A stretch of 64,000 nt of DNA from a virus. The position numbers and the translations under genes are program-made. A model generated the notes under the pieces. It saw nothing but the letters and a program-made list of their open reading frames with translations, made no database searches and was not told the origin of the DNA. Where the stretch lies: IMG/VR virus record IMGVR_UViG_3300045988_126281. One strand, given 5' to 3'. Positions 28,599 to 51,615 of the stretch are shown piece by piece. Position 1 is the first letter of the stretch; the number at the start of each line of letters is the position of its first letter.

Positions 28599-30836
28599 TT
28601 AAAACCAATCTCTATTTAAAATATCAACTTGTTCAAGATTTTCCTCATCAAGAGGTTTTCTACTTGTAAGTTCAGATTCAGCTCTGAGTTGCATAGCTTT
28701 CCATTCTATGCCACGAAGTATCATTTCAGATACTCTATCAAAATTACCTTTACTATTCCATTTCTTAAGTTCAAGAATAGTTTGATAATCATAAATAGTA
28801 TGAAAATTTCTTATAGGATTTCCAAATTCATCTTTACCAATTTCTTCATAAAGAAATTCTTTAAGAAGTCTAATACCATCAAGTTTTCTTGTAGCAGAAC
28901 CCATATTATAACCATAAGTTGAACTTGTTTTACCTTTTAATGTAGAATCCCAAACATATAAAGGCTCAAATGAAAGATAACGAAGTGCATTCCACTTTCT
29001 AAAATTAGAAACAGTTTCACCTCTATTAACCTCAACATTTGTAGTTCCAATGCAATTATAATATTTAGCTAAAAGATAACAAATATGGTCAGCTTCTTCA
29101 AGTTTATCAGTACGACCATAATAAGAAGCAACAAGTTTTTGTTTATATCCATTAACAGCACAAGGATTCATCCAAACTTTAATACTGTTATGAGAATGAC
29201 GATTAGTAATTTCATTTTTATCTTTATCGATACCAACGGGGTCATAAGTTATACTATAACGACCATTAGGTATTTCTTTCTTCGTTTGATAAGCATTTGA
29301 AATAATATCATATTCGGGAAAGAAAAAAATTCTAACACACCCATGAGGGTTTTCATTACTTCTACGAGGAACACCTTGAATATAATCAAATACTTGTTTT
29401 CCTTGTTCTCTCAATAATTTATTTGAAGTAAATTTAACACCTCCAGCAACTTCTTCTAATGCTCCGTCAATATAAAATTTTAAATCTTCATCAATACGAA
29501 GTCTATTTTCCCAAGCAGTAAGTTCTTCAGAACTAAATATATTTTCAGTAGCACTACTAAAAGATTCAGCAGGAAAATTAGCATATTGTCCAAGATAATT
29601 GATATAATCTGCATAAGTTTTAGCACTTTCTTTTTTCTTAATACGTTCTCTTTTTGCTATTTCAAGACCTACAAGTATATTACTATTTCCATTTTCATCA
29701 ACTCCTTTAACACCAGAAATTTCTCCTTGAAGTCCCCAACAATAAGGCTTAAAAAAACCACAAACTTCATTACGAGAATCTCTATCCCAAACATTTTCAA
29801 AAGGCATAAAATTAAAAGTTTTAGGATTATAAAAATTCTGTTCAAAAGTTTGCATATTACCAGAAGTAGCAGTTCCCCAAGCACAAAGAAAACCAGTTGT
29901 ATAAGCACCTGTTCTCATAGCAGGTTCAGTAACATTCATAAATTCATCAAAATTTTCCATAGTAGAAACTTCTTCTACTTTGACTTTAATAGCATCTTTA
30001 CCAATTGCACAATCAGGATTGTTCATAGCAGAAACAGAAATTAAAGAACTACCCCAAGATTTATCTGCTTCTGTACCATTAGGTAACTTATAACCAAGAC
30101 GAAAATCAGTTTTCATTGTACTAAGAATACCTCTAACAAAAGGAGTATTTTGTTCATAAAAACGAATATCTTGTATAGCAAAATCTGTAAGACCTCCTTT
30201 TTGAGTAAGATATTTTGAATCAGCAGCTATATGAATAACTACTTTACGAGATTGAAGATTTACAGTATTTGCAGAATCAGAAGCCATAATATAAGAAAAT
30301 CCTCCACGACGAGTTTTATCTATAAGAAAATGAAAACCATTATTTTGTGCAAATTCCATAGCATGAAACGTCCAAAATTGAGCATCAATAAATTTAGGAA
30401 AATTATAATATTTTTCAGCAGTATTTATATTACCAACTTTAACAGTACTTTCTTTTAATTGCTCGATACGTGTATAATTAAGAAAATTATAATGAGAACC
30501 TGTAATTCTAACATTATGAATACTGCCATCAGGATATAAAAGGCAAGGTGCAGTAAAACCATTTTTACGTCTATATTGTTCTCTTTTTCTTACTTGACGA
30601 TGAGGAATACTATCAACTTTATAATTAGTAAACACTTTATTTCTATTAAAATAATCAGCCATTTCAACAAAGAGTTCAGTATTAATAAATCTAACACCTG
30701 GCTGAATATTCATAAGAAAACCTCCACTATCGCCTATAAGAAATAAATCATCTGGGTCTTTATATCCACAATCTTTAGCATGTTTATAATGTGATTTATC
30801 CTCATTAATGAACGATAAAAAAGGATAATTATCCAT
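28599..30836 (-). CDS. Terminase large subunit (inferred)
   Basis: 745-aa ORF at the head of the morphogenesis operon; possible deviant P-loop DKTRRGGFS. Confidence 0.6.
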   Translation of the reverse strand: MDNYPFLSFINEDKSHYKHAKDCGYKDPDDLFLIGDSGGFLMNIQPGVRFINTELFVEMADYFNRNKVFTNYKVDSIPHRQVRKREQYRRKNGFTAPCLLYPDGSIHNVRITGSHYNFLNYTRIEQLKESTVKVGNINTAEKYYNFPKFIDAQFWTFHAMEFAQNNGFHFLIDKTRRGGFSYIMASDSANTVNLQSRKVVIHIAADSKYLTQKGGLTDFAIQDIRFYEQNTPFVRGILSTMKTDFRLGYKLPNGTEADKSWGSSLISVSAMNNPDCAIGKDAIKVKVEEVSTMENFDEFMNVTEPAMRTGAYTTGFLCAWGTATSGNMQTFEQNFYNPKTFNFMPFENVWDRDSRNEVCGFFKPYCWGLQGEISGVKGVDENGNSNILVGLEIAKRERIKKKESAKTYADYINYLGQYANFPAESFSSATENIFSSEELTAWENRLRIDEDLKFYIDGALEEVAGGVKFTSNKLLREQGKQVFDYIQGVPRRSNENPHGCVRIFFFPEYDIISNAYQTKKEIPNGRYSITYDPVGIDKDKNEITNRHSHNSIKVWMNPCAVNGYKQKLVASYYGRTDKLEEADHICYLLAKYYNCIGTTNVEVNRGETVSNFRKWNALRYLSFEPLYVWDSTLKGKTSSTYGYNMGSATRKLDGIRLLKEFLYEEIGKDEFGNPIRNFHTIYDYQTILELKKWNSKGNFDRVSEMILRGIEWKAMQLRAESELTSRKPLDEENLEQVDILNRDWF

Positions 30837-35294: not shown

Positions 35295-35771
35295 TTAAAT
35301 ATTAATTCCAGCAGAAGTAATTTCTGGATTAAGTTCTATAACAACAAATTTAGCATCTGCTAAACTAACGTTAGAAATAAAATTATATTTATCAATAACT
35401 TTAATAGTTCCATTAGGAATACATCTTATTATATGTCTATCTAATAAACAATTAATAGCTCTATAATAAGTTGTTTTAGATTTACCATAAAAGTTTACAG
35501 CAGCTTTAACAATCTCATCTTGAACCATTTGTTTATTATTATAAACACACCAATAAATAGCAGTAAGGCATTCTCTTTCAGCTTTAGGAAGTTCAAGGGT
35601 ACAAGTGAATATTTTACAAAGATTAAGAAATTTAATATCTATATCACTATTCCCTTTAGATTTAGTATTATCACAAACAAACTTAACTATTTCTTCATCT
35701 TGAACAAAATGTGAAGATTCAAAATCAGTATAAGTTTTATGACCAGTTCTATCATCAACATTAAGATTCAT
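35295..35771 (-). CDS. Hypothetical protein (first gene of the leftward block)
   Basis: 158-aa ORF. Confidence 0.5.
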   Translation of the reverse strand: MNLNVDDRTGHKTYTDFESSHFVQDEEIVKFVCDNTKSKGNSDIDIKFLNLCKIFTCTLELPKAERECLTAIYWCVYNNKQMVQDEIVKAAVNFYGKSKTTYYRAINCLLDRHIIRCIPNGTIKVIDKYNFISNVSLADAKFVVIELNPEITSAGINI

Positions 35772-35855
35772 TATATCATAACTTTTACAATTTCTGCAAC
35801 TAATATACGCATTTTTTGTAAAAATTCAAATAATGTTTATATTAGTCTTAGTAAT

Positions 35856-35873
35856 CCTGCCTGTAAAGGAATT
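35856..35873 (+). repeat. Dispersed motif copy cctgcctgtaaaggaatt in the divergent promoter region
   Basis: Exact core copy read directly. Confidence 0.8.
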
Positions 35874-35906
35874 GTTATATTTAATGATATTATTATACCT
35901 TATGAT

Positions 35907-36554
35907 ATGATTAATAAAACTGAAATAAAATTTACTGCCTTTAGTATTACTTCTGTTCGTGCTGAACAAAAATCAGAAGATAATAATGCAACTCCTAAAT
36001 TTAGAATTAATACTGATAAAAAAGGACAAATGTATTTTAGAGTTAAGCAAGAAGAATTTAATCGTCTTGAAAGACTTAGACAAAGTATTGCTTGTACTCC
36101 TTTTGAAGTTAAAGATAAATATCCAAGTTCAATGCCTGTTGATACTGTTATTAATGATGGAATTTATTGTTTAATTGAGCCTTATAAATTATTTGAAATA
36201 GCTGACAGACTTCCAAAGAATTGTTTTAAATATTTTCTTATTCTTTGTAAAGAACTTCTTCCTGATACAAATATTATTACTTTAGTTGGAACAGAAGTTG
36301 CTAAAAAATATGGTTTTGATGTTAGTCATATTCAAAACTATAATGCTATTCTTTGTGATTTGCAAATTATAGTTAGAACTGATGTTCAAAGTACTTTTGT
36401 AATTAATCATAATATTATTTATAAAGGTGACCTTAATAAATTTTCTAAAAACTATAAAGAAATTTATAATGATTCTGTTCCAGAACGTATTAATTATACA
36501 AAGATAAAACTTAGTAATAAAAAAGCTTATGTTAACAAGAATAAAACGGATTAA
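35907..36554 (+). CDS. RepL-like replication initiator paralog 1
   Basis: C-terminal TFVINHNIIYKGDLNKFSKNYKEIY is paralogous to MYVVNHNMIFKGNLEKFIATYNELY of the 37587 ORF. Start moved to an internal ATG at 35907 to avoid overlap with the divergent gene. Confidence 0.5.
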   Translation: MINKTEIKFTAFSITSVRAEQKSEDNNATPKFRINTDKKGQMYFRVKQEEFNRLERLRQSIACTPFEVKDKYPSSMPVDTVINDGIYCLIEPYKLFEIADRLPKNCFKYFLILCKELLPDTNIITLVGTEVAKKYGFDVSHIQNYNAILCDLQIIVRTDVQSTFVINHNIIYKGDLNKFSKNYKEIYNDSVPERINYTKIKLSNKKAYVNKNKTD

Positions 36555-36789: not shown

Positions 36790-37028
36790 AAGAATTTTAT
36801 AAGCATTCAAAAAATTATCGTTGGAGTATCAGTCATATTCATACAAAATGTGCTAATTATAAAGACGATTATAAAAAAGTTTTATTTAAACCTGGTTTTC
36901 GTTGTCATAAATTTATTTTAGATAAAAGTATTGCTTTTTATTTTAATATCCATTATAAAAATTATATTAGTAGTTATATATTAACTGTGCCATATATAAT
37001 AAAAAGAATTAATTCTAACTGTGCTTAA
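36786..37028 (+). CDS. Small hypothetical protein
   Basis: 80-aa ORF. Confidence 0.35.
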   Translation: MKEFYKHSKNYRWSISHIHTKCANYKDDYKKVLFKPGFRCHKFILDKSIAFYFNIHYKNYISSYILTVPYIIKRINSNCA

Positions 37029-37395: not shown

Positions 37396-37586
37396 TTGAA
37401 TCCAATGATACTTAGTGTGCCTTTGAACCTAATGTTATTAAATATGTTAATGATTTTGTTTGATATAATACTGGTATATCTATAAGATATAATACTGTCA
37501 TATAGTTAAGTGATTGATTATTAATATATTAGAAAATCATAACTATGAGCTGGAGTTCACAATTATGAATTTTTTAGTGTCGTTGT

Positions 37587-38195
37587 GTGAACTATATCCG
37601 ACAAATTACTATTTTTGTGAAGTATGATTCATTCTTTAATAATTTAATTATGGAGTTTAAGTTTAATAAAAGAGTACTTAAAGGTTATGGTATTAAAGTT
37701 AGTGCTAAAGCGGTTAAAGAAGCATCTAAAATAATGCCTACAACTTTTAATTTAGATTATGATTCTGCTACTAAATCTTGTTTTGATGAAGTTGTTAATG
37801 GCTATATGATTAGTCTTAATAAAGATTATGTTAAGAAAGAACCATATAGTATTATTAGCATTGCTTTAACTTTAAACTTTCCTAAACTTTCTAGACCTGC
37901 ATTGCTTCTTGTTGGTTATATTGCTTCTAAAATTCAATTTGATTCAAACTATATTGAGCTTAAAGAAAAAGATTTTGCTGGATATTCTGGACTATGTAAT
38001 AAATCTTTCTTTGATGGAATAAAAGAACTTGTTGATATTAAAGTTCTCGCTATTACTAATCGTAAATCTATGTATGTTGTTAATCATAATATGATATTTA
38101 AAGGTAATCTTGAAAAGTTTATTGCTACTTATAATGAACTTTATGGAAAACCTTGTGTTGTTGATGAGCAAGGACGTATTGTTATTGATAAATAA
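37587..38195 (+). CDS. RepL-like replication initiator (start possibly at 37650, MEFKFNK)
   Basis: Overall resemblance to firmicute and crAss RepL; paralogous to 35907..36554. Confidence 0.6.
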   Translation: MNYIRQITIFVKYDSFFNNLIMEFKFNKRVLKGYGIKVSAKAVKEASKIMPTTFNLDYDSATKSCFDEVVNGYMISLNKDYVKKEPYSIISIALTLNFPKLSRPALLLVGYIASKIQFDSNYIELKEKDFAGYSGLCNKSFFDGIKELVDIKVLAITNRKSMYVVNHNMIFKGNLEKFIATYNELYGKPCVVDEQGRIVIDK

Positions 38196-38556: not shown

Positions 38557-38700
38557 CTAGTATTATTCTAATACTAGATTATTCTAATATAATATAATAT
38601 AATATATAAATAAATATATAATATAATATAAATAATATATTATTATATAATAATATTATATAAATATAATATTATTATAATGTAGTATTGGATAAAGACC
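38557..38700. repeat. Hairpin ctagtatta-ttc-taatactag followed by an irregular (TA/ATA/TAA)n low-complexity tract
   Basis: Read directly; about 140 nt of almost pure A/T with 2-3-nt periodicity. Confidence 0.7.
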
Positions 38701-39440
38701 GAAGTCTTGGTAATAAAGTTTGTAATAAAGTTATAGATTTTATTTATGATAATAATAATGATTTTCTTATAGGTAAATTTAATGATTTTATTTATGTTGA
38801 ATTTATTATTAATAATATAATTTTTAGTTATAGTAAAAATATAATTGAAATATAAGATAAAGTTTATTATAAAATTTATATTAGATTTGAAGTTATTGAT
38901 ATTATTAAAATTAATGTTAAAAATAGAATTAAAAGAAGTAATCATTTTATAGAAGGTAGTTAATGTAATTGAATTTAAATAAATGGTGTTATTATTAAAT
39001 ATTTTATTATTGATGGAAAATGATATAATCATAGTGCTAATAAAATTTATAATATTTATAATAAAAATATTGTTTTTCTTTGTAATGAAAATGGACATAA
39101 TGATAGAATTAGTCTTTTGTGTGTAAGATAAGATTATATTATAGGAAATGATATTGTTGAAATTTGTGTTTAATTTTGTTGTCAAATTGGTTATAAAGTT
39201 AATAGAAGTAATATTTATTTTTATTGTGTTGTTATTAATAGTGAAGATTATTATAGGCGGAATAAATATATTATTGTTAAAGGTGGCCACCTTATAAGAA
39301 ATTACATTGTTGAATTTAATAATGTAAAATTAAATATAATTATTAATTTTATTGCAATAAGAAATATTAATTGTTTTATTGCTATGAATGATTGTGCTGA
39401 TTATTATGAAATTAAATATATAGTGTGAGTTTAGTTTATT
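38700..39440 (+). other. Non-coding, C-depleted region (about 2% C against about 15% G on the + strand)
   Basis: About 16 C in about 740 nt counted by eye. Contains GGTGGCCACC palindrome and GGCCACCTTATA[AG]GAA direct repeats at 39285 and 39453. Confidence 0.6.
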
Positions 39441-39519
39441 TGTGTAAGACTGGGCCACCTTATAGGAAGCCCCGGGTGCTTCAATAAGACTTGAAGTCCC
39501 CCGTCAACTTCCATGTGAA

Positions 39520-39529
39520 AACCTCAAAC
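39520..39529 (+). promoter_or_regulatory. Candidate promoter box AACCTCAAAC (copy 1) with downstream TATTATA...TTGG
   Basis: One of four + strand copies, all upstream of GC-enriched genes. Confidence 0.4.
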
Positions 39530-39643
39530 TTGGCTACTATTATATTCTTGGAATTACTGAAATAATTAATTCTATCACATCAGATGATGATACTTATTCT
39601 GATGTTGATGTTTCTTTCGTATCTACTAAATCAAGTTTATCTT

Positions 39644-40117
39644 ATGAAAACTCTTGATTCTCTAACAGTTGCTCTTGCTGAAGGCACAAGAGTTACTGTT
39701 CGTAATGGCAAACTCTTTGTCATTACTAATGCCGAACTGCCTTCTGTTAATGACACTATTTGTACTGCGTTTCTTGATAAGAAGCAGTTTGTGTCTGCTC
39801 TTCTTAAGCACAGTGGTGCTTCCAAGTTTGTTAATGACAAACTCATAGAGGAGCTTGATGTCAAAGTTGGGGACAATTATGTCACTAAACGTGTGTACAA
39901 CGACTATGCTGTTGCTTACGCTGCATCTCATTGCTCCTATGTTCTTCAGCCTACTCTTATGGAAGCTGGAGATACTTATGACAAAGCAAACGGAGAACTT
40001 GGAGTTATCGAAACAAGTTATATCAAGTTTGACATTGTTAGTGTTGAACCTGATGAAGCTATGTCTGCTGCACTTACTAAGTATGCGGCTGCCGAACGTG
40101 ATTTCTTCGGATTCTAA
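39644..40117 (+). CDS. Hypothetical protein, GC-enriched codon usage, C-terminal ...ERDFFGF
   Basis: Start MKTLDSL; clean 158-aa ORF with composition distinct from the AT-rich neighbours. Confidence 0.6.
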   Translation: MKTLDSLTVALAEGTRVTVRNGKLFVITNAELPSVNDTICTAFLDKKQFVSALLKHSGASKFVNDKLIEELDVKVGDNYVTKRVYNDYAVAYAASHCSYVLQPTLMEAGDTYDKANGELGVIETSYIKFDIVSVEPDEAMSAALTKYAAAERDFFGF

Positions 40118-40171
40118 TGTTCATTTGCTCCTCCTTATCACGGAGGAGGAGCATTTAATGATGCTTTCGTT

Positions 40172-40423
40172 ATGAAAATTCTTGCTTATCTTGTATTTGG
40201 ACTTGATAAAGTCATTTACAATGTGTTTGGAGTTGTTACTCCAATAAAACGTGCTTATTGGCGTCGTAAAGCGAAAGAGATTCAAAAAGCTCTTGATTAT
40301 CAACATAATAAAGTAGCTAAATATAATAGTTATGCTGCCAATAAAATGACTGGCAGGTTTTATGTTGAAAAGTATGGTATAATTGATTCTATTCGTGAAC
40401 TCAATCATCCTGGTAGGATATAG
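40172..40423 (+). CDS. Small hypothetical protein
   Basis: 83-aa ORF followed by a strong terminator. Confidence 0.45.
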   Translation: MKILAYLVFGLDKVIYNVFGVVTPIKRAYWRRKAKEIQKALDYQHNKVAKYNSYAANKMTGRFYVEKYGIIDSIRELNHPGRI

Positions 40424-40427
40424 GACA

Positions 40428-40462
40428 GTTCTGGTACTAGAGATAGTACCAGAACTTCTTTT
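40428..40462 (+). terminator. Rho-independent terminator
   Basis: 11-bp perfect stem gttctggtact / agtaccagaac, loop agagat, then ttctttt. Confidence 0.7.
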
Positions 40463-40466
40463 ACAA

Positions 40467-40476
40467 AACCTCAAAC
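40467..40476 (+). promoter_or_regulatory. Candidate promoter box AACCTCAAAC (copy 2)
   Basis: aaaacctcaaacttatactattataactttggg, near-identical to copy 1. Confidence 0.4.
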
Positions 40477-40572
40477 TTATACTATTATAACTTTGGGTAT
40501 TAATTCGTTCTGAACCTGTTTTGCTTATGATGATAACAGTTGTGAAAACTCTTATCATCATTCTTTTTATAT

Positions 40573-40582
40573 AACCTCAAAC
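40573..40582 (+). promoter_or_regulatory. Candidate promoter box AACCTCAAAC (copy 3)
   Basis: ataacctcaaacggaaacgattaagatattgg. Confidence 0.35.
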
Positions 40583-40825
40583 GGAAACGATTAAGATATT
40601 GGTAGAAGTAATAGTAACAGTTATTTTTATCTTATAAGGTTTTACTCTTCTCAGCGGCCTTATAATAATATTATGAGAAGATACTTATAAACTTATGTGT
40701 GGAATAATAAGTATTAATTTAGAAACACTTATGGTTCAAGTATTGCCTTTACTTGTGTTACAGCCATTATCATGCGAAAAGGCAAAATGGCACTATCTTA
40801 TGGTAGTGCCATTATTTTTTATATT

Positions 40826-40835
40826 AACCTCAAAC
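40826..40835 (+). promoter_or_regulatory. Candidate promoter box AACCTCAAAC (copy 4), ~70 nt upstream of the 40907 ATG
   Basis: ttaacctcaaacatgacaattataatattgg. Confidence 0.4.
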
Positions 40836-40906
40836 ATGACAATTATAATATTGGCTGACATAATGATAAGCATTATGTTAACCATAACTTTAAAGTTTGT
40901 TATATT

Positions 40907-41503
40907 ATGGCAGATGCTATTACAAATGCTCCTGAAGTACAAGGTACTCCAGTTGAGCCTGTTGAAGCACAAGTTGCTTCTGTTGCTCCTAATGGAAGCA
41001 AATCAATTAAAGACATTATTAGTAGCATTATGGCTACTGGTAATGCTGTAAAGTATAGGGCTTGCTTAGTTAAGTCTTGTAGAGTTGAAGAAGAAGATAA
41101 TTATACTAGAGTTAGTATTACTCTTGGTAATGAAGTTACTGGTTTTCTTCCAGATGCTTCTGGTAATTATCTTCCTGCTCAAGTTACTACCGTATTCAGC
41201 TCCGGATTTGCCTTGTCGGCTTGTCTTAAAAATAATGAAGACATAAGTTGGCTTGCCGGCATTATAAACGAAAACCCAAATGCCATTCGTGTTCTTCTTC
41301 CTGGTAGTAAAATTGATATTATTCGTCAGCTTGTAAAAGCAGGTGAAGAGTACATCAATCCTTTCACTACAAAATCAGCTGAAGATATTGTTCCAAGTGT
41401 CTTTGACCATGATACTTACATTACTCATATTGTAGGTATTGAACTTGGTAAAAATGGTTCAAAGTTTGCTGATATGCTTGCTATGAAAGTTATGGGATTT
41501 TAA
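40907..41503 (+). CDS. Hypothetical protein, GC-enriched, C-terminal ...AMKVMGF
   Basis: 198-aa clean ORF. Confidence 0.65.
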   Translation: MADAITNAPEVQGTPVEPVEAQVASVAPNGSKSIKDIISSIMATGNAVKYRACLVKSCRVEEEDNYTRVSITLGNEVTGFLPDASGNYLPAQVTTVFSSGFALSACLKNNEDISWLAGIINENPNAIRVLLPGSKIDIIRQLVKAGEEYINPFTTKSAEDIVPSVFDHDTYITHIVGIELGKNGSKFADMLAMKVMGF

Positions 41504-41542
41504 TCTCATAATACTTATAATGTAACTTATAGATATAATAAT

Positions 41543-41625
41543 ACTGTCAATAGTAGTTTTGTAACATTAGGTTTCGACTAAAATAAATTTTAGTCTTAAA
41601 TTTAATACAGACTACTATTGACAAT
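41543..41625 (+). promoter_or_regulatory. Nested inverted repeats: outer actgtcaatagtagt / actactattgacaat, inner gactaaaa / ttttagtc
   Basis: Read directly; intergenic between the 40907 and 41716 genes. Confidence 0.5.
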
Positions 41626-41715
41626 ATTATTTATATTTACTATTTTTGACACAAACAAACCACGAGTGAGTTTGTTAATAATAAGACTTCTATTAATCAA
41701 AAACAATTTCAAATT

Positions 41716-42363
41716 ATGGCTAAAATGGCTGCTGCTCTTACAGATGAGCAAAAAAGTAAACTTGCAGAAATTTCTGCTAACGCTACTGAATCTACTGATT
41801 CTAAAGAGAACAAAGGTGCAAAACGTAATCGTATTGACCCTGAAAAGGCTAATGAAAACAAAAAGCCTGCTACTGAAAAGCCATATGCTCGTAAACCTTT
41901 TGTAAAAGGTGATGGAAATTACCATAAACCTTTTAAAGGTAATACCGCAGAGAATATAGACGCTATCATTGAGCGTTTTGGTGAGTTTAATGTTAAGATT
42001 GCTACTCTTATGAAGTACAATGCTGAGATTAGACGTTTCACTGCTCTTGGTATTCTTAATTGGCTTACACAAAAAGGTGTTATCAATGCCAAGTCTAAAT
42101 ACGTTACTTTCAAATGGAACAAGTTCGTTGTTCGAGTTGATGGTCTTAATAAAGAATTTTCTTACAAAGAAGATTTCTTTATCAATGCTCTTGTAGCCAG
42201 CTTTGCAAGTCTTGCTAATTATGCAACGTTTATAATTAATGATTTCATTAAATATGAAATTGAGGCTGATGCTAATGATGTTCTCAATAGCACTGACATT
42301 GATGAACTTACCATCAAAGATGGCTTTGATAAGCCAAAAGAGGAAGTAACAGATTCTGAATAA
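41716..42363 (+). CDS. Hypothetical basic protein
   Basis: 215 aa, GC-enriched; the stop codon is immediately followed by a copy of the dispersed motif. Confidence 0.65.
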   Translation: MAKMAAALTDEQKSKLAEISANATESTDSKENKGAKRNRIDPEKANENKKPATEKPYARKPFVKGDGNYHKPFKGNTAENIDAIIERFGEFNVKIATLMKYNAEIRRFTALGILNWLTQKGVINAKSKYVTFKWNKFVVRVDGLNKEFSYKEDFFINALVASFASLANYATFIINDFIKYEIEADANDVLNSTDIDELTIKDGFDKPKEEVTDSE

Positions 42364-43381: not shown

Positions 43382-43454
43382 GACTTCATAGCTCAGTTGG
43401 TAGAGCATAACACTTTTAATGTTAGGGTCACGAGTTCGAGCCTCGTTGGAGTCA
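43382..43454 (+). tRNA. tRNA-Lys (anticodon TTT)
   Basis: Cloverleaf folded by hand: acceptor GACTTCA/TGGAGTC, D-arm AGCTCAGTTGGTAGAGC, anticodon stem-loop TAACA-CTTTTAA-TGTTA, T-arm ACGAG-TTCGAGC-CTCGT. Confidence 0.85.
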
Positions 43455-43532
43455 CAGCACTAATTCTTTGTGCTATTATGGTTTTATGTGTTTCTCAAGT
43501 ACTATCTGTTGTGAAACACATAGTACTTTCTT

Positions 43533-43619
43533 GCTTTGGTGGTGAAATTGGTAGACACGAGGGACTTAAAATCCCTTGGACTGAAATAGTCCTTACGGGT
43601 TCGATTCCCGTCCGAAGCA
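43533..43619 (+). tRNA. tRNA-Leu (anticodon TAA), type II with long variable arm
   Basis: Acceptor GCTTTGG/CCGAAGC, anticodon stem-loop AGGGA-CTTAAAA-TCCCT, variable arm GGACT-GAAAT-AGTCC, T-arm ACGGG-TTCGATT-CCCGT. Confidence 0.85.
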
Positions 43620-43626
43620 CTAATTT

Positions 43627-43697
43627 TGAAGTATGGTGTAATGGCAGCACAAGAGATTTTGGTTCTCTTTGTAGAGGTTCAAATCCTCTTACTTCAA
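43627..43697 (+). tRNA. tRNA-Gln (anticodon TTG)
   Basis: Perfect 7-bp acceptor TGAAGTA/TACTTCA, anticodon stem-loop AGAGA-TTTTGGT-TCTCT, T-arm GAGGTTCAAATCCTC. Confidence 0.8.
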
Positions 43698-44021
43698 CAA
43701 AACGTTGTGATAACGAATCCAAGATATTTTTCAAAGTCAATTGTTGTCATAGAACTATTAATGAATTTGTAAGTATCCTTTATCTTGGAAATTCAATTAT
43801 TGCAGTAATTGAATTTGGTAATGCTGGTATTAATAAGATTACACCATATCTTTATTAATATCAGCATTATTTTTGTTTGTTATTTCAATTCTTTGATCAC
43901 TTCCTTGGCTTCTGAATAACTTTTATTCTATAAATGATAAACTATATCACTTATAGTAATAACATCATCAGAAAGCCTGTAAATCGAGTAAAAATAATAA
44001 AATTTATAAATTTTTAATATT

Positions 44022-45348: not shown

Positions 45349-45813
45349 ATGCCTACATTTGACCTTTCTCTTGTAAAAAAGCCTAAAATCAAGAGAAAAG
45401 ATAGTTTTAACAAAACTAAAGGCAAATATACTATTATTCAAAGAAATGTTAAAGGTGTTTGTTGTATTACTTTAGAAGGTTTTTATTATGTTCAATTTGG
45501 TGAACATTTATATAAATTTACTTCTGAAAGTTATAATACTGTTACTAATGATTATTATTCTAAACAATTAGTTAATGGTAAAATTGTTCATATTAAAACA
45601 CTTAAAGATAATAATAAGTGGGATGGTGAATATTTTCCATTTGCTCCTGGAGTAATAGTTAAAGGTAATATTGTACGACATAATACTCTTAATAATTATT
45701 TCTTTGATTTAAAAGGAACTTATTGTGATTGGAAATATCTTGAAACAACTGAAAGTTTTAAGTTCTTTCGAGATAACTATGAAACAATAAGAGCAAATCA
45801 AAATAATGGATAA
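45349..45813 (+). CDS. Hypothetical protein
   Basis: 154-aa ORF. Confidence 0.5.
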   Translation: MPTFDLSLVKKPKIKRKDSFNKTKGKYTIIQRNVKGVCCITLEGFYYVQFGEHLYKFTSESYNTVTNDYYSKQLVNGKIVHIKTLKDNNKWDGEYFPFAPGVIVKGNIVRHNTLNNYFFDLKGTYCDWKYLETTESFKFFRDNYETIRANQNNG

Positions 45814-47269
45814 CCTTGAAATTGTAAGTAACAATACAATAAAAAGAACTAATCCAAATATAAATTTTACACAAAGTCAACAAGTGGCTATTGATGGACT
45901 TCTTGAGTTCATTAATAGCCCTTTTGATTCTGGTAAATTTATTAATGGATTAATAGGTTCGGGCGGTACTGGTAAAACTTTTACTATTAATTATATAATT
46001 AATGCCTGTAATTATGCTATAAGTACAATTCGTTGTACTGCTCCAACTCATAAAGCTTGTAGAGTTTTAAGTCAAGCTCTTAATGGACTTAAAGTTGAAA
46101 CTATACAATCTACATTTGGTTTTAGACTTGATACTAAACTTGAAGATTTTGATTATAATAATCCAAGATTTTCTCCAGTTAGTACTCCTAAACTTGAGAA
46201 TATCAAAGTTTTAATAATAGATGAAAGTTCTATGCTTCCTGCTAAACTTGTTAATTATATTATTAAAATTTGTAAGCCTCTTGAAATTAAAATTATTTTT
46301 ATTGGAGATTCAAGTCAATTACCACCTGTAAATGAAAAAACAAGTACTGCTTTTAATGTTTGTAATAAACTATATCAACTTACTGAAATAGTAAGACAAG
46401 AAGATAATAATCCTATATTATTTCTTTTAAATATACTTCGAGAAGATATTAAAAATAATACTTATAAATTTATTTCTTATATTAATGCTAATCTAAATTC
46501 ACAAAACGTTAATGAATTTGGAGATGGATATTTTATTTGTAATCCTAATGATTTTACTCAATTAATTGATGAAAGATTTAGAGATGAAGAATATCTTAAA
46601 AATATTAATCTTTATAAAATCATTGGATATACAAATGATAAAGTTGCTATATGGAATAATTTTGTAAGAAATAGAATTATTAAAGATGCTGATAAAACTA
46701 TTATTAATAAAAATGATTTAATCATGTCTTATCAGACTATTGTAAATGAATTTAATTCAATAGTTATTAATAATAGTGAAGAATATATAGTTAAAGATAT
46801 TATTAATTATACTGATACTACTTATGGATTTAAAGGATTTCTTGTTAAATTTCAAATGGTTAATGGTGGAAATGTAACAACTCCTTTATTTATTCTTGAC
46901 CATACTGATAGATTTAGTATTACTAAATATATACAAGTTATTGGAGAACTTGTTAAAGCTGCTAAATTTGCTAACGGAGCTACAAGAAGTAAACGTTGGA
47001 AAGAATATTTTGAATTCAAAAAGAAATATCTTATTATGTGTAATATTAAAAATGCTACACAAGTTCTTTATCAAAGAGATATTGATTATGGATTTGCTAT
47101 TACTTCTCATCGTTCACAAGGTTCTACTTATGATAATGTTTTTGTCGATATGAAAGATATTATATTTGATAAAAACAATAATATTTATAATAATAAAGCT
47201 GAAATGCTTCGTAGACTTTATGTAGCTTGTAGTAGAACTCGACATAAACTTTATATTTGTTATGGGTAA
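45806..47269 (+). CDS. SF1B DNA helicase (Dda/RecD/PIF1-like)
   Basis: Walker A GSGGTGKTF, Walker B LIIDESSM, motif VI AITSHRSQGSTYDNVFV. Confidence 0.85.
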   Translation: MDNLEIVSNNTIKRTNPNINFTQSQQVAIDGLLEFINSPFDSGKFINGLIGSGGTGKTFTINYIINACNYAISTIRCTAPTHKACRVLSQALNGLKVETIQSTFGFRLDTKLEDFDYNNPRFSPVSTPKLENIKVLIIDESSMLPAKLVNYIIKICKPLEIKIIFIGDSSQLPPVNEKTSTAFNVCNKLYQLTEIVRQEDNNPILFLLNILREDIKNNTYKFISYINANLNSQNVNEFGDGYFICNPNDFTQLIDERFRDEEYLKNINLYKIIGYTNDKVAIWNNFVRNRIIKDADKTIINKNDLIMSYQTIVNEFNSIVINNSEEYIVKDIINYTDTTYGFKGFLVKFQMVNGGNVTTPLFILDHTDRFSITKYIQVIGELVKAAKFANGATRSKRWKEYFEFKKKYLIMCNIKNATQVLYQRDIDYGFAITSHRSQGSTYDNVFVDMKDIIFDKNNNIYNNKAEMLRRLYVACSRTRHKLYICYG

Positions 47270-47771
47270 GCGGAATAAAGATAATAATAATTTTCAAGAT
47301 AATATTATTAGCAAACTCCCTGTAAAAGAATGCAATTACTGTCTTGGCTGTCCTGCTCGTCTTTATACTCCTAATGAATTTATAGTTTATGGTAAAGGAA
47401 ATGTTTGTTCTCCAATAATGTTTGTTATTTATGATTCTTATAAACATAAACAAGACAATATTAAATTACTTAAAGATGTTTATCAAGAATTATTTCAAAA
47501 AGATATTTTTGAAGAACATTATGTTACTACTGCTGTTAAATGCGAATGTCAAAATGAAATACTAATGCAAAGTTTTATTAATTGCAGAAATTTACTTTGT
47601 GACGAAATTACAAGTATTATGCCTAATAAAATAATTGTTGTTGGTAACATTCGTATTAATTTTGGTGATAAATATAAAATATATTATATTCCTAATATTT
47701 ATTCTTTACTATATGGAGAGAAAAATATTGCTAAATTTAAAGAACGATTATTAGAAGCAATTTATGATTAA
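47262..47771 (+). CDS. Possible family-4-type uracil-DNA glycosylase
   Basis: Cys cluster CNYCLGCPARL and GKGNVCSPIMFVIYDS, loosely resembling the Cx2C...GE[AG]PG core of UDG family 4. Confidence 0.35.
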   Translation: MGKRNKDNNNFQDNIISKLPVKECNYCLGCPARLYTPNEFIVYGKGNVCSPIMFVIYDSYKHKQDNIKLLKDVYQELFQKDIFEEHYVTTAVKCECQNEILMQSFINCRNLLCDEITSIMPNKIIVVGNIRINFGDKYKIYYIPNIYSLLYGEKNIAKFKERLLEAIYD

Positions 47772-50124
47772 TATTTGGTGCTATGATGTAGAGATATTAC
47801 CAAATTTCTTTAGTATAACATTTGTTAATCTTAGTTCATATACTAAAACTTTTAAAGATAGTTGTAATATTACTATTAAAAAAGGTAAAGAAAAACGTAT
47901 TCCAATTCCACTTACTGAAAAATATAAAGTTAGTGATATTAAAACAATGCTGGATTCAGTTGAATCTAAAACGTTTTGGATTTCAGATTTTAACGATAGT
48001 CAATTACTTACTATGATTGGCTTTATCAATTCGTTACAAGCTAAAAAAGACAGTAATAAAAACGTTTTTACGCACTGTTATGGTTACAACTCTGGAGCAT
48101 ACGATAAACTGATGGTTGCTTGCTTGCTGATGTATTACAATATGTTTTCAAGTACTAAAGAACTTATTAGAAAACTTTATGATACAAGTAAAAAGATAAT
48201 TGACCTTCAAGATAATGAAGAAATATCAAGAAAAGATTATTATCTTGATTCTCTTCGTAAATATCCTCTTCCTTATTATGACGTAGATTTAATGAAAGTA
48301 TTTGCACTTAATAAGGCTGGAACTATTATTGGTTCTGATGGAAAAAAATCTTATTATGGTAAAAGTCTTAAGCAAACAAGTATTAATCTTAAATGGTATG
48401 AACTTCTTGAATATGAACTCCCTCCTATTTGTGAAAAAGATGCTGAACTTTATTATAATAATCAACGTTATTCCGGTTTTACTTATGAACAACTTAATAG
48501 TGTTATAGATAAATGGGATAGATTTATGATTCCTGAATATGTTGAACCAACTATGCATTATAATAAAAATGATGTTTTTATTGTATGTGAAATGGCTCGA
48601 TTATATTCTGATGAAATAAAACTTCGTTATTCTATTTCTAATGCTTATGAAGTAAATGTTCTTAACAGTTCTCGTAGTAATGTTGCTGATATTCTTTTTA
48701 CAAAGTTTTATTCTGAATTTTCTAATCTTACTCCAAAACAATGGCAAGGTAAGAAAACAGAAAGACATAGTTATCCTCTTAAAAAAGTAATTTTTGATAA
48801 TATTAAATTTAAAACTAAACCTTTACAAGATTTACTTGAAGAACTTAAGAAAACTACTCTTTATAGTGTTGGCAAAGATGCACTTAATAAAACTATTGTA
48901 ATTGGTAATACTAAATATACTTTAGCTACTGGTGGATTACATAGTCAAGACCCTCCTCGTGTATTAAAAAGCAAACTTATTGAATGCGATCCCTCTACGG
49001 GCAGGAGCCGAGCCGTAGGCGAGGCAATTACTGATTTTAATTGGGATAATTATACTGATGATAGTTATGTGTATATACACGCTGATGTATCAAGTTTTTA
49101 TCCAAGTCTTATGACTGTTTATAAAATTGCTCCTGAGCATCTTGATACTGGTTGCTTTACTAAACTTGTTGGGTGGTTAAGAGATACTCGTGTTAAAGCT
49201 AAACATAGTGAAGAAGATATAATTGATGGTATTCCTAAAGATATTCTTGCACAAGCTCTTAAAATTGTAATTAATTCAATTTATGGAAAACTTGGTTCAG
49301 AATTTGGTAATCTTTTTGATAGATTGGCAGTTCTTAAAGTTACTATTAATGGACAACTTTTTGCATTTATGCTTAGTGAGGAACTTGAACTTAATGATAT
49401 TCCTGTAATTTCTGCTAATACAGATGGTATTGTTGTTAAAGTAAGAAAAGATAAATATTCAACTTTTCAACAAATTTATAAAAATTGGGAAAAATATACT
49501 GGATTAAGTCTTGATGAAGAATTTTATTCTGCTTATATAGATAGAGATATAAATAATTATTTTAGCATTGAACTTAATGGTAAATATACTTATAAAGGAG
49601 ATTTAAATCCTGATATGTATAAAGTAGATTTATCAAAAGGCTATAACGCTCCTATTGTTGCTAAAGCAGCTATTGAATTTTTGGCTCATAATAAACCTGT
49701 TCTTGAAACTCTTTATGAGTGTAAAGATATTCTTGACTTTTGTAAAACACAAAATATCGGAAGACAATTTCATACTGAATTTTATAAAGGTCAAACTAAA
49801 GAAATATTACAAAGACAAATTAGATTTTATGTTTCTATGATTGGAGGAAATTTATTTAAAGTTTCTAAAGAAGGAACTTTGAATAATCTTTGTGCTGGGT
49901 ATAAAGTTAATATTCTTAATACTCTTGATGATACACCAATTGAATTAAGGAATATTAATTATTCTTATTATGCTGATGAAGCATATAAGATTATAGACCC
50001 TATTAAATTAGGTATTAGTCCTAATCAAAAAGGTAATCCAAATACTAAAATTAAATCTGGTAAGTCTTTGCTTAAAAAGAATGCTCAAGCATATTTTAAT
50101 CTTTTTGATGATGAAGAAGATTGA
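47764..50124 (+). CDS. Family B DNA polymerase
   Basis: Motif A DVSSFYPSL (DxxSLYPS), motif B KIVINSIYGKLG (KxxxNSxYG), motif C-like ANTDGIVV. Confidence 0.9.
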   Translation: MINIWCYDVEILPNFFSITFVNLSSYTKTFKDSCNITIKKGKEKRIPIPLTEKYKVSDIKTMLDSVESKTFWISDFNDSQLLTMIGFINSLQAKKDSNKNVFTHCYGYNSGAYDKLMVACLLMYYNMFSSTKELIRKLYDTSKKIIDLQDNEEISRKDYYLDSLRKYPLPYYDVDLMKVFALNKAGTIIGSDGKKSYYGKSLKQTSINLKWYELLEYELPPICEKDAELYYNNQRYSGFTYEQLNSVIDKWDRFMIPEYVEPTMHYNKNDVFIVCEMARLYSDEIKLRYSISNAYEVNVLNSSRSNVADILFTKFYSEFSNLTPKQWQGKKTERHSYPLKKVIFDNIKFKTKPLQDLLEELKKTTLYSVGKDALNKTIVIGNTKYTLATGGLHSQDPPRVLKSKLIECDPSTGRSRAVGEAITDFNWDNYTDDSYVYIHADVSSFYPSLMTVYKIAPEHLDTGCFTKLVGWLRDTRVKAKHSEEDIIDGIPKDILAQALKIVINSIYGKLGSEFGNLFDRLAVLKVTINGQLFAFMLSEELELNDIPVISANTDGIVVKVRKDKYSTFQQIYKNWEKYTGLSLDEEFYSAYIDRDINNYFSIELNGKYTYKGDLNPDMYKVDLSKGYNAPIVAKAAIEFLAHNKPVLETLYECKDILDFCKTQNIGRQFHTEFYKGQTKEILQRQIRFYVSMIGGNLFKVSKEGTLNNLCAGYKVNILNTLDDTPIELRNINYSYYADEAYKIIDPIKLGISPNQKGNPNTKIKSGKSLLKKNAQAYFNLFDDEED
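48989..49027 (-). repeat. Motif copy atccctctacgggcagg plus a GC-rich extension, embedded in frame in the polB CDS
   Basis: The 39-nt GC-rich island encodes DPSTGRSRAVGEA. Its sequence architecture is near-identical to the intergenic element at 44927..44964. Confidence 0.7.
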
Positions 50125-51535: not shown

Positions 51536-51615
51536 TAATTTTAATGATAAATTTTGTTATTAAATTAGAAAATGTTATATTTGTATCAGTTAATTAAACA
51601 CACGTTCTTTGAAAT

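What the first reader, a model, noticed from the sequence alone, without database searches (positions are those of the whole stretch)
39515..40840. Four same-orientation copies of AACCTCAAAC followed by TATTATA...TTGG upstream of codon-distinct genes: candidate phage-specific promoter
Copies lie at 39520, 40467, 40573 and 40826. A possible fifth, ttaacctcataattgtaataaatatactat, lies at 37026. Copies 1 and 2 are near-identical over 25 nt (aaaacctcaaactt..ctactatta). All lie in intergenic DNA on the + strand preceding genes 39644, 40907 and 41716. These genes have conspicuously GC-enriched codon usage, suggesting high expression. The motif does not match the Bacteroides sigma-A -33/-7 consensus (TTTG / TAnnTTTG) in this orientation. 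It may be recognised by a phage-encoded or virion-packaged RNA polymerase, or be a regulator operator.
Basis: seen in the sequence. Interest (0 to 1): 0.55.

Follow-up and report, generated by a model that had tools for sequence, protein, structure and literature searches.

The report
Conserved phage-specific promoters in crAss-like phages
Four copies of a roughly 30-base signal sit at the head of the DNA-replication genes of a crAssphage relative; the signal is conserved across that phage subfamily, including the prototype gut crAssphage, and is most likely a phage-specific transcription start signal whose reader (injected phage polymerase or redirected host polymerase) has not been identified.

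Summary
AACCTCAAAC occurs exactly four times in 64 kb, all on the + strand within 1.3 kb (0.11 expected). The window is a crAss-like phage of Intestiviridae/Crudevirinae.

The full signal is bipartite, about 30 bp: a 5' box (CCTCAwAC), a 2-6 nt spacer, then AC-N6-AAT-N-TTGG. The C at -11 from TTG is present in 39 of 40 instances. Copies 2-4 directly follow intrinsic terminators. Copies 1 and 4 precede codon-biased genes (a 157-aa protein and an SSB-like protein). Copies 2 and 3 precede ORF-free units of about 70 and 215 nt.

The signal recurs in distant relatives, always on the replication-module strand. p-crAssphage carries CTCATTATCAACATTAAATAnnTTG three times before gp02 and gp04, and the cultured phage 'Rudgehvirus jaberico' has it too. 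It is absent from bacterial genomes. The 5' box differs between lineages but is uniform within a genome, which points to a phage-encoded reader.

It lacks the Bacteroides -33 box and only loosely resembles the -7 box. Best reading: phage-specific early/middle promoters, probably read by the virion RNA polymerase. The main rival is host polymerase plus a phage activator. The fifth copy at 37026 is rejected, and no copy precedes gene 41716.

The parts
39437..39508 (+). Conserved GC-rich element ending in CTTGAAGTCCCCCGTCAA, 12-20 nt upstream of the first promoter box
   Evidence: CCCCCGTCA is invariant or nearly so in 18 divergent relatives, including p-crAssphage position 84, and always lies upstream of the first promoter copy. 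It is 90-97% identical in L121/L122. No consensus RNA structure was found on either strand. Its function is unknown.
39520..39551 (+). Promoter-like motif copy 1 (AACCTCAAAC-N6-AC-N10-TTGG; the longest spacer of the four)
   Evidence: conserved in L121 (as AACCTCATAC) and L122
39644..40117 (+). Gene driven by copy 1: 157-aa protein with no family match and the highest GC3 in the window
   Evidence: The start at 39644 gives a 93-nt leader, which fits the 55-130 nt seen in relatives.
40126..40153 (+). GC-rich hairpin after the first gene, with a weak U-run; a possible partial terminator
   Evidence: z -5.0
40172..40423 (+). 83-aa ORF, last gene of the first transcription unit
   Evidence: conserved in L121/L122
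40422..40462 (+). Intrinsic terminator T1 (13-17 bp stem plus UCUUUU), ending 5 nt before copy 2
   Evidence: z -6.9
40467..40496 (+). Promoter-like motif copy 2; its 3' end TAACTTTG matches TAnnTTTG exactly
40497..40569 (+). Unit A: ORF-free stretch of about 70 nt ending in terminator T2 (hairpin 40527-40561 plus U-run); candidate small RNA
   Evidence: The stem keeps pairing through changes in L122, and the only ATG is lost there.
40573..40602 (+). Promoter-like motif copy 3
40603..40820 (+). Unit B: ORF-free stretch of about 215 nt ending in terminator T3 (40786-40813 plus U-run); candidate non-coding RNA
   Evidence: Fold z -3.3. Indels that are not multiples of three occur in relatives, and the whole cassette is duplicated in L121. 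No Rfam match. Terminator z -5.5.
40826..40854 (+). Promoter-like motif copy 4
40907..41503 (+). Gene driven by copy 4: 198-aa OB-fold SSB-like protein, homologous to p-crAssphage gp02
   Evidence: BLASTP to gp02, E 4e-8. AlphaFold model pLDDT 73.6; the top Foldseek PDB hits are nearly all bacterial or mitochondrial SSBs, at probability about 0.9-1.0 but with low TM-scores of 0.22-0.45.

Best explanation
The four boxes are copies of a bipartite, phage-specific promoter at the head of the rightward DNA-replication module of a Crudevirinae crAss-like phage.

Arrangement. Each copy starts an insulated transcription unit:
- P1: a 157-aa protein plus an 83-aa protein.
- P2: an RNA of about 70 nt.
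- P3: an RNA of about 215 nt.
- P4: an SSB-like protein.
Units 1 to 3 each end in an intrinsic terminator just before the next promoter.

Recognition. It appears to be in two parts. The 5' box (CCTCAwAC) changes between phage lineages but is the same in all copies within a genome. The 3' half (AC-N6-AAT-N-TTGG) stays constant across the subfamily. Transcription would start at or a few bases after TTGG.

Most likely reader. I favour the phage's own transcription machinery, namely the virion-packaged RNA polymerase injected with the DNA, possibly helped by an early phage DNA-binding protein for the 5' box. These would then be early/middle promoters that work independently of host sigma-A.

Shown versus inferred. 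Shown: the motif, its conservation, and its position relative to terminators and genes. Inferred: promoter function, the start site and the identity of the polymerase. The confidence of 0.45 is for the whole statement, including the virion RNAP. That the boxes are promoters of some kind I put at about 0.85.
For: - Statistics: 4 exact copies against 0.11 expected, one strand, within 1.3 kb.
- Anatomy: copies 2-4 begin 5-14 nt after hairpin-plus-U-run terminators. Leaders are 53 and 93 nt in the window and mostly 55-130 nt in relatives.
- Footprint: motif identity is 92.7% against 68.4% for other non-coding DNA and 74.9% for CDS, window vs L122.
- Deep conservation: CCTCAWAC occurs 45 times on the + strand and 6 on the - strand in loci L123-L157. 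All 53 profile hits at E<=10 are on the module strand.
- Variants at the orthologous place: p-crAssphage at 121, 366 and 1296 before gp02 and gp04, and nowhere else in 97 kb; cr3_1 and the cultured 'Rudgehvirus jaberico'.
- Specificity: the strict consensus hits only 6 crAss-like contigs (~31-97 kb) in IMG/VR, with several same-strand copies in most of them. In 596 Gb of bacterial genomes it gives only chance-level hits, none in Bacteroidales.
- Logo: C at -11 in 39 of 40 instances, and no information downstream of TTGG.
- No -33 TTTG lies at 19-21 nt upstream.
- The 5' box is homogeneous within genomes and differs between lineages: CCTCAAAC, CCTCATAC, CCTCATAT, CCTCATTC, CTCATTAT, CCCTCyyA.
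- Downstream genes have capsid-like codon bias.
- Analogy: in crAss-like phage phi14:2 the whole replicative module is transcribed by the rifampicin-resistant virion RNAP, and abundant early non-coding RNAs come from intergenic DNA near its start (bioRxiv 10.1101/2020.03.07.982082). A 2023 review states that the vRNAP drives early and middle genes (PMC10136315).
Against: - No transcription start site or expression data were obtained for this phage or any relative.
- In phi14:2 the mapped early 5' ends showed no common motif, and I found no analogous repeat in its first 5 kb.
- The 3' end of the motif resembles the Bacteroidetes -7 box (nAATyTTG against TAnnTTTG; exact in copy 2), which would fit host sigma-A.
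- One related clade (L123) has exact TAnnTTTG boxes (CTTACTACATTTG) at the equivalent places.
- The variable 2-6 nt spacer is unlike the rigid promoters of single-polypeptide phage polymerases.
- The vRNAP genes lie outside the window, so co-variation of polymerase and box could not be tested.
Confidence: 0.45

Rival explanations
1. These are promoters read by the host sigma-A RNA polymerase after redirection by a phage-encoded activator. The activator would bind the 5' box in place of the missing -33 element, while sigma-A reads the -7-like 3' end. This resembles T4 middle promoters (MotA box plus sigma-70 -10). The activator would be an early protein such as one of the RepL-like winged-helix proteins encoded just upstream (35739-36554, 37650-38195).
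For: - The 3' end resembles TAnnTTTG: TAACTTTG, TATTCTTG and TAATATTG in copies 2, 1 and 4, and nAATyTTG in the family logo.
- The box lies about 10-13 nt upstream of that element, as a MotA box does (own knowledge of T4), and the spacer is flexible.
- A lineage-specific 5' box fits a co-evolving phage DNA-binding protein.
- RepL-like genes sit directly upstream, and one has a TATTTTTG box 33 nt before its start.
- The L123 clade uses exact TAnnTTTG at the same places.
- In crAss001 a transcriptional regulator is among the earliest genes (PMC8375218).
Against: - The T of TA is not conserved, and TTCGG variants occur.
- TAnnTTTG is not enriched in this AT-rich genome: 123 found against 115 expected.
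- No MotA, AsiA or sigma-like family was found in neighbouring proteins.
- The homologous module is rifampicin-resistant in phi14:2.
- RepL-like genes were not detected in several motif-bearing loci, although those loci are truncated.
Confidence: 0.28
2. These are ordinary strong host sigma-A promoters with an unusual upstream region, needing no phage factor.
For: The 3' end is -7-like. The DNA upstream of the box is T-rich. The downstream genes appear highly expressed.
Against: - No -33 TTTG is present in any copy.
- About 20 conserved positions exceed the host consensus, including an invariant C at -11.
- The box changes between phage lineages that share the Bacteroidales promoter type.
- The consensus is absent from bacterial genomes.
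Confidence: 0.08
3. The copies are binding sites (iterons or operators) for a RepL-like initiator or regulator near a replication origin, and are not promoters themselves.
For: - Two RepL-like genes lie just upstream.
- A 19%-GC palindromic region (38585-38690) and 153-168-nt tandem repeats (39139-39470) also lie upstream.
- Directly abutting tandem copies 25-29 nt apart occur in L129, L130, L132 and jaberico.
Against: - In the window the copies are 947, 106 and 253 nt apart. Each sits after a terminator and before a gene or RNA unit.
- Orientation strictly follows transcription.
- Distance to start codons is regular.
- The 25-29 nt spacing is not in helical phase.
Confidence: 0.07
4. The motif acts at the RNA level (a leader or processing signal), or is simply a remnant of recent cassette duplication without function.
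For: A cassette was duplicated in L121. Copies 1 and 2 share 25 nt.
Against: - Terminators immediately upstream argue against read-through RNA carrying the motif.
- The motif persists where the flanks are unalignable, at 33-46% protein identity.
- The motif has no self-complementarity and no Rfam match.
Confidence: 0.03

Closest known systems
Phage T4 middle promoters (MotA box at about -30 plus host sigma-70 -10 element; MotA/AsiA sigma appropriation). From own knowledge.
   Same: Bipartite layout. A phage-specific box replaces the host upstream element at a similar distance (about 10-13 nt) from a host-like downstream element, with a slightly flexible spacer. It serves replication-type genes.
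   Different: No MotA or AsiA homologue was found. The downstream half carries much more conserved sequence than the host -7 box, including an invariant C at -11. The homologous module in phi14:2 does not depend on host RNAP.
Early promoter clusters at the leading genome end of T7 (A1-A3, host RNAP) and N4 (P1-P3, virion RNAP hairpin promoters). From own knowledge; N4 also via PMC4496689, listed.
   Same: A cluster of 3-6 same-strand promoters at the start of the first-expressed module, next to a place where many assemblies end. crAss-like phages also inject a giant virion RNAP.
   Different: The motif has no hairpin of the N4 type, and tandem copies lack any hairpin. The sequence is unrelated. 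Physical genome ends were not determined here.
phi14:2 (Steigviridae) early transcription by virion RNAP gp66 and its abundant early non-coding RNAs; phi14:2 tripartite middle promoters read by host RNAP (bioRxiv 10.1101/2020.03.07.982082)
   Same: Same genome architecture. ORF-free, separately transcribed units lie near the start of the replicative module. Phage-specific multi-block promoter motifs are conserved within a crAss subgroup.
   Different: No common motif was reported for phi14:2 early 5' ends, and none was found here. The phi14:2 tripartite motif lies before middle/late genes on the other strand and was found only in 14 genomes, chiefly candidate genus VI of Betacrassvirinae. Its logo could not be read for comparison.
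Bacteroidetes sigma-A promoters (-33 TTTG / -7 TAnnTTTG, spacer 19-21; Bayley et al. 2000, from own knowledge)
   Same: The 3' end ..AATyTTG(G) overlaps TAnnTTTG. Copy 2 matches it exactly.
   Different: There is no -33 element. Extra invariant positions are present. Apparent host-type promoters elsewhere in the window look different (51553-51583 TTTG-N19-TATATTTG; 41621-41648 TTG-N20-TATTTTTG).

Membership tests
Bacteroidetes sigma-A promoter | -7 element TAnnTTTG | tested here: inconclusive
   Copy 2 TAACTTTG is exact; copy 1 TATTCTTG and copy 4 TAATATTG match 5 of 6; copy 3 AGATATTG matches 3 of 6. The family logo is nAATyTTG, with the leading T not conserved. TAnnTTTG is not enriched in the window.
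Bacteroidetes sigma-A promoter | -33 element TTTG, 19-21 nt upstream of the -7 element | tested here: not met
   None of the four copies has it. The pattern TTTG-N19-21-TAnnTTTG matches elsewhere (5 sites, 2.7 expected) but not here.
N4-type virion-RNAP promoter | Short DNA hairpin (5-7 bp stem, 3-nt loop) with conserved bases just upstream of the start | tested here: not met
   The motif has no self-complementarity. The hairpins upstream of copies 2-4 are terminators followed by U-runs, at variable distance. Abutting tandem copies in L130/L132 have no hairpin between them.
T7-like single-subunit RNAP promoter | Rigid, contiguous conserved block of about 23 bp running through +1 | tested here: not met
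   The spacer between the 5' box and the AC...TTGG half varies from 2 to 6 nt.
T7-like single-subunit RNAP promoter | Phage encodes a T7-like RNAP | not tested
   No such gene appeared among the window proteins scanned. crAss-like phages are known for a two-barrel virion RNAP instead.
T4 MotA-dependent middle promoter | Phage-specific box about 12 nt upstream of a host-type downstream element, with the host upstream element absent | tested here: met
   The box ends 10-13 nt before the -7-like 8-mer, and -33 is absent. This is a match of geometry only.
T4 MotA-dependent middle promoter | MotA/AsiA-type activator and co-activator encoded by the phage | tested here: not met
   No Pfam or PHROG match of that kind in the 10-20 neighbouring proteins scanned. 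Only RepL-like proteins were found.
ECF-sigma promoter | AAC-containing -35 element plus a CGT-type -10 element about 16-17 nt downstream | tested here: not met
   AAC is present in the box, but there is no conserved CGT element. The conserved downstream positions are AC, AAT and TTGG.
Replication-origin iterons | Several direct repeats clustered in about 100-250 bp, in helical phase, next to an AT-rich region and a Rep gene | tested here: not met
   Spacings are 947, 106 and 253 nt, with each copy between a terminator and a gene or RNA unit. An AT-rich region and RepL-like genes are present nearby.
phi14:2-type tripartite middle promoter | Sequence logo of the three blocks | not testable with these tools
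   The figure and supplementary file are not held.
phi14:2-type tripartite middle promoter | Location upstream of middle/late (virion and transcription-module) genes | tested here: not met
   All copies lie on the replication-module strand at its head.

The most novel reading that the evidence does not exclude
This may be the first sequence-defined promoter class for the giant virion-packaged RNA polymerase of crAss-like phages, present in the prototype human-gut crAssphage itself. On this reading, a conserved GC-rich element (…CCCCCGTCA) plus a battery of 3-6 insulated promoters lies at the end of the genome that is expressed first. The battery drives abundant small non-coding RNAs and an SSB-like protein. 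A lineage-variable 5' box sets phage-specific polymerase or cofactor specificity.
Probability: 0.4. Interest if true: 0.8.

Novelty: new variant of a known kind. Interest (0 to 1): 0.6.

Why it matters
crAss-like phages are the most abundant viruses of the human gut. What their injected giant RNA polymerase recognises is not known. The only study in the searchable library found no common motif at early starts, and a 2023 review of the order never mentions a promoter.

The motif found here is sharply defined, deeply conserved and phage-exclusive. It sits at the head of the module expected to be transcribed by that enzyme, and it is present in p-crAssphage and in a cultured relative. That provides concrete templates: for example P2-unit A-T2, which should give a terminated product of about 70 nt. 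These can be used in in-vitro transcription, rifampicin experiments and mutagenesis.

The motif also points to previously unannotated small non-coding transcription units, and it offers compact candidate promoter and terminator parts for engineering Bacteroides phages.

Tried and rejected
- Megablast of the region against GenBank phages found nothing.
- I tried to infer transcript ends from short public contigs that carry the two genes. The three 0.6-0.8-kb gene-1 sets look like low-coverage metagenome DNA, and none of the contigs starts at a predicted transcript start.
- Rfam gave only three tRNAs elsewhere in the window, at both gathering and E-value thresholds.
- RNAalifold on the GC-rich element found no supported structure on either strand.
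- I tested whether TTG(G) could be a -33 box with a -7 box further on. There is no information downstream of it, so this was rejected.
- I looked for an analogous repeat or cassette in the first 5 kb of phi14:2 and found none.
- Co-occurrence of RepL-like genes with the motif was uninformative, because many loci are truncated.
- Pfam and PHROG gave no function for the small neighbouring proteins.
- The homologue search for the 157-aa protein listed only close relatives among the 120 hits shown (211 found), so no structure was predicted for it.
- The supplementary promoter lists of the phi14:2 paper are not held.
Full report
WHAT THE WINDOW IS

The 64-kb window is a crAss-like phage.
- PHROG profiles identify the major head protein (23036-24508, -), the portal (26169-28586, -) and the large terminase (28599-30836, -). 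They also identify a Dda-like helicase (45806-47269, +) and a DNA polymerase (47764-50124, +).
- Genes run leftward from 1 to about 35.8 kb and rightward from about 35.7 kb to 64 kb.
- The capsid protein is 76% identical to that of Carjivirus communis (p-crAssphage; Intestiviridae, Crudevirinae). Gene order matches that genome.
- No GenBank phage is close at the DNA level.
- BLASTP maps w37650 and w35739 to the RepL-like gp43/gp88, w40907 to gp02 ('putative SSB'), and w41716 to gp06.
- The finding therefore lies at the head of the rightward replication module. Upstream of it are two RepL-like genes and then an AT-rich non-coding stretch of about 900 nt.

THE OBSERVATION

- AACCTCAAAC occurs exactly four times (39520, 40467, 40573, 40826), all on the + strand. 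The expectation is 0.11, and no shuffle reaches four.
- Near-matches elsewhere are scattered, mostly inside genes, and lack the downstream half.
- It is the most repeated G+C-containing 10-mer in the intergenic DNA.
- The proposed fifth copy at 37027 has two mismatches and no downstream half. Its core is mutated in relative L121 within a 94%-identical flank. I reject it.
- No copy precedes gene 41716. That gene instead has a host-type TTG-N20-TATTTTTG upstream.
- The codon claim is correct. GC3 is 0.297 for 39644-40117 (highest of 61 ORFs; mean 0.119, sd 0.052), 0.231 for 41716-42363 and 0.181 for 40907-41503. The capsid gene is at 0.222.

ANATOMY

- Copies 2, 3 and 4 begin 5-14 nt after strong hairpins followed by U-runs. 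The z-scores are -6.9, -3.8 and -5.5.
- P1 is followed, after 93 nt, by a 157-aa ORF and then an 83-aa ORF.
- P4 is followed, after 53 nt, by a 198-aa protein. Its AlphaFold model (pLDDT 73.6) matches OB-fold single-strand-binding proteins.
- P2 and P3 are followed by ORF-free stretches of about 70 and 215 nt, each ending in a terminator.
  - In relatives these stretches carry indels that are not multiples of three.
  - The terminator stems keep their pairing through base changes.
  - L121 has one whole extra promoter-unit-terminator cassette.
  - Unit B folds better than shuffles (z -3.3), and neither unit has an Rfam match.
- The region is thus a series of insulated transcription units, two of which are probably non-coding RNAs.

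COMPARATIVE EVIDENCE

Close relatives.
- L121 and L122 keep all copies.
- Window vs L122, the motif is 92.7% identical. Other non-coding DNA is 68.4% identical and coding DNA 74.9%.

Distant relatives.
- I used an alignment of homologues of the SSB-like protein to fetch 32 further loci from crAss-like contigs, most from genomes of about 85-97 kb.
- The core generalises to CCTCAWAC. It occurs 45 times on the + strand and 6 times on the - strand of loci L123-L157, several copies per genome. All lie upstream of the homologue, in phages whose protein is only 35-46% identical.
- A profile built from 37 instances gives 53 hits at E<=10 in about 0.5 Mb, all on the module strand. It also reveals the variants CCTCATAT, CCTCATTC and GCTCATAC.

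Named genomes.
- p-crAssphage carries CTCATTATCAACATTAAATAnnTTG at 121, 366 and 1296, before a small ORF, gp02 and gp04. Two loose matches to the 8-base box (6292, 77360) lack the downstream half.
- cr3_1 carries CCCTCyyAwAATAACAATAAAGAATTTGG.
- The cultured 'Rudgehvirus jaberico' carries CTCAAACTAATGAC-N9-10-TTGG three times, before its homologue.

Refined logo.
- I anchored 40 instances at TTG. This gives C at -11 (39/40), A at -12 (33/40), AAT at -4 to -2, and TTGG.
- There is no information downstream of TTGG.
- The spacer between the 5' box and the AC varies from 2 to 6 nt.

Other regularities.
- The next ORF usually starts 55-130 nt after the motif.
- The strict consensus (19 fixed bases) hits only six crAss-like contigs in IMG/VR, with several same-strand copies in most of them.
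- In 596 Gb of bacterial and archaeal genomes it gives eight chance-level hits. None is in Bacteroidales, and one is a mis-binned crAss contig.

WHAT IT MOST LIKELY IS

A promoter reading fits five lines of evidence:
- strict co-orientation with transcription;
- position between a terminator and a gene or RNA unit;
- regular leader length;
- the phylogenetic footprint;
- orthologous placement across the subfamily.

Against the Bacteroidetes sigma-A consensus (-33 TTTG, -7 TAnnTTTG; own knowledge, Bayley et al. 2000):
- The -33 element is absent in every copy.
- The 3' end resembles the -7 box only loosely. It is exact in copy 2, and nAATyTTG in the logo.

The 5' box differs between lineages but is uniform among the copies of one genome, while the 3' half is constant. 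This is the pattern expected if the 5' box is read by a co-evolving phage-encoded component. Absence from host genomes agrees with that.

WHICH POLYMERASE

This was not determined.

For the virion RNAP:
- In phi14:2 the entire replicative module is early and rifampicin-resistant, and so attributed to the injected polymerase.
- In that phage, intergenic RNAs near the start of the module are among the most abundant transcripts.
- A 2023 review extends this view to the whole order.

Against it:
- phi14:2 early 5' ends showed no common motif.
- I found no analogous repeat in phi14:2.
- The flexible spacer and the -7-like end fit a sigma-type reader.
- One related clade (L123) has exact TAnnTTTG boxes (CTTACTACATTTG) at the same places.

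My estimates are:
- promoter of some kind: about 0.85;
- virion RNAP, with or without a phage specificity factor: about 0.45;
- host RNAP redirected by a phage activator (T4 MotA-like geometry): about 0.28;
- plain host promoter: about 0.08;
- iteron or operator only: about 0.07.

The iteron idea draws on the neighbouring RepL-like genes, the AT-rich palindromic region, and the abutting tandem copies in some relatives. The dispersed placement in front of separate units argues against it.

UPSTREAM ELEMENT

- Immediately before P1 lies a GC-rich element of about 70 nt (39437-39508) that ends in CTTGAAGTCCCCCGTCAA.
- The CCCCCGTCA core is invariant or nearly so in 18 divergent relatives. These include p-crAssphage (position 84) and clades that lack the CCTCAWAC box.
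- No consensus RNA fold is supported on either strand.
- Several long assemblies end within 48-1700 nt upstream of it (ranges). It may therefore mark a genome end, a hard-to-assemble region, or an origin. Its role is unexplained.

NOVELTY

In the searchable literature only the phi14:2 paper treats crAss promoter motifs, and its motif concerns middle/late genes of another subgroup. I regard this as a new variant of a known kind of feature, namely phage-specific promoters. Its interest is above average for two reasons. It gives a concrete, testable candidate for what transcribes the early module of the human-gut crAssphage lineage, and it reveals unannotated small RNA units.

Noticed in passing
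whole window, e.g. 6389(-), 26096(-)/26124(+), 32402(-), 35857(-), 37275(-)/37383(+), 42365(-), 44930(+), 63951(-): A dispersed 13-mer, CCTTTACAGGCAG (variant CCTCTACGGGCAG), has 26 matches at <=2 mismatches (10 exact) against 0.54 expected. It occurs on both strands, in genes and between them, and sometimes as inverted pairs flanking 15-100 nt. Related repeats occur in p-crAssphage (CCCCCGTAGAGGATGG, 8 copies, all on one strand), cr3_1 and L123. Function unknown.
   Followed up: partly
window 39437-39508; p-crAssphage BK010471 about 40-100; L123-L157: A GC-rich element ending in CCCCCGTCA is conserved across the subfamily just upstream of the first promoter, even in clades without the CCTCAWAC box. 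No RNA structure is supported. Many assemblies break 48-1700 nt upstream of it.
   Followed up: partly
window 41530-41640: A very stable 110-nt hairpin (21-nt arms, 95% complementary; z -9.0) lies between the SSB-like gene and gene 41716. Its arms contain ATAATACTGTCA, and its right arm overlaps a host-type TTG-N20-TATTTTTG box.
   Followed up: partly
window 37462-37509: A tandem 24-nt repeat, GATATAATACTG(G/T)..., lies 140 nt upstream of the RepL-like gene 37650. ATAATACTGTCA recurs at 41538. This may be a second regulatory or promoter motif (7 matches at <=1 mismatch against 0.9 expected).
   Followed up: no
window 38572-39470: About 900 nt of ORF-poor DNA. It includes a 19%-GC stretch of overlapping AT palindromes (38585-38690) and two tandem 153-168-nt units (39139-39470), each ending in GGCCACCTTATA. 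It resembles an origin or a terminal region.
   Followed up: no
window 51553-51583: A perfect Bacteroidetes-type promoter, TTTG-N19-TATATTTG, lies 33 nt before gene 51616. Host-type promoters therefore may coexist with the CCTCAAAC class in the same module, although such matches are not enriched overall (5 found against 2.7 expected).
   Followed up: no
L123 5515-6185: A related clade lacks the CCTCAWAC box. At the equivalent places it has CTTACTACATTTG (an exact TAnnTTTG): once before the first gene, and three times in tandem 36-37 nt apart after it.
   Followed up: partly
L129, L130, L131, L132, L134: 30-50 nt downstream of their tandem or third promoter copies: The transcribed, apparently non-coding units share a repeated TTAAGCGT (for example ..TTTAAGCGTATTACTAAGCGT..). 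This suggests a conserved small RNA or a protein-binding site in the RNA or DNA.
   Followed up: no
L121 5656-5919: One close relative has an extra promoter-unit-terminator cassette of about 260 nt. These small non-coding units are therefore gained and lost as modules.
   Followed up: partly
window 43382-43698: Three phage tRNA genes (Lys-UUU, Leu-UAA, Gln-UUG), which match the A/T-ending codon preference of the genome.
   Followed up: no
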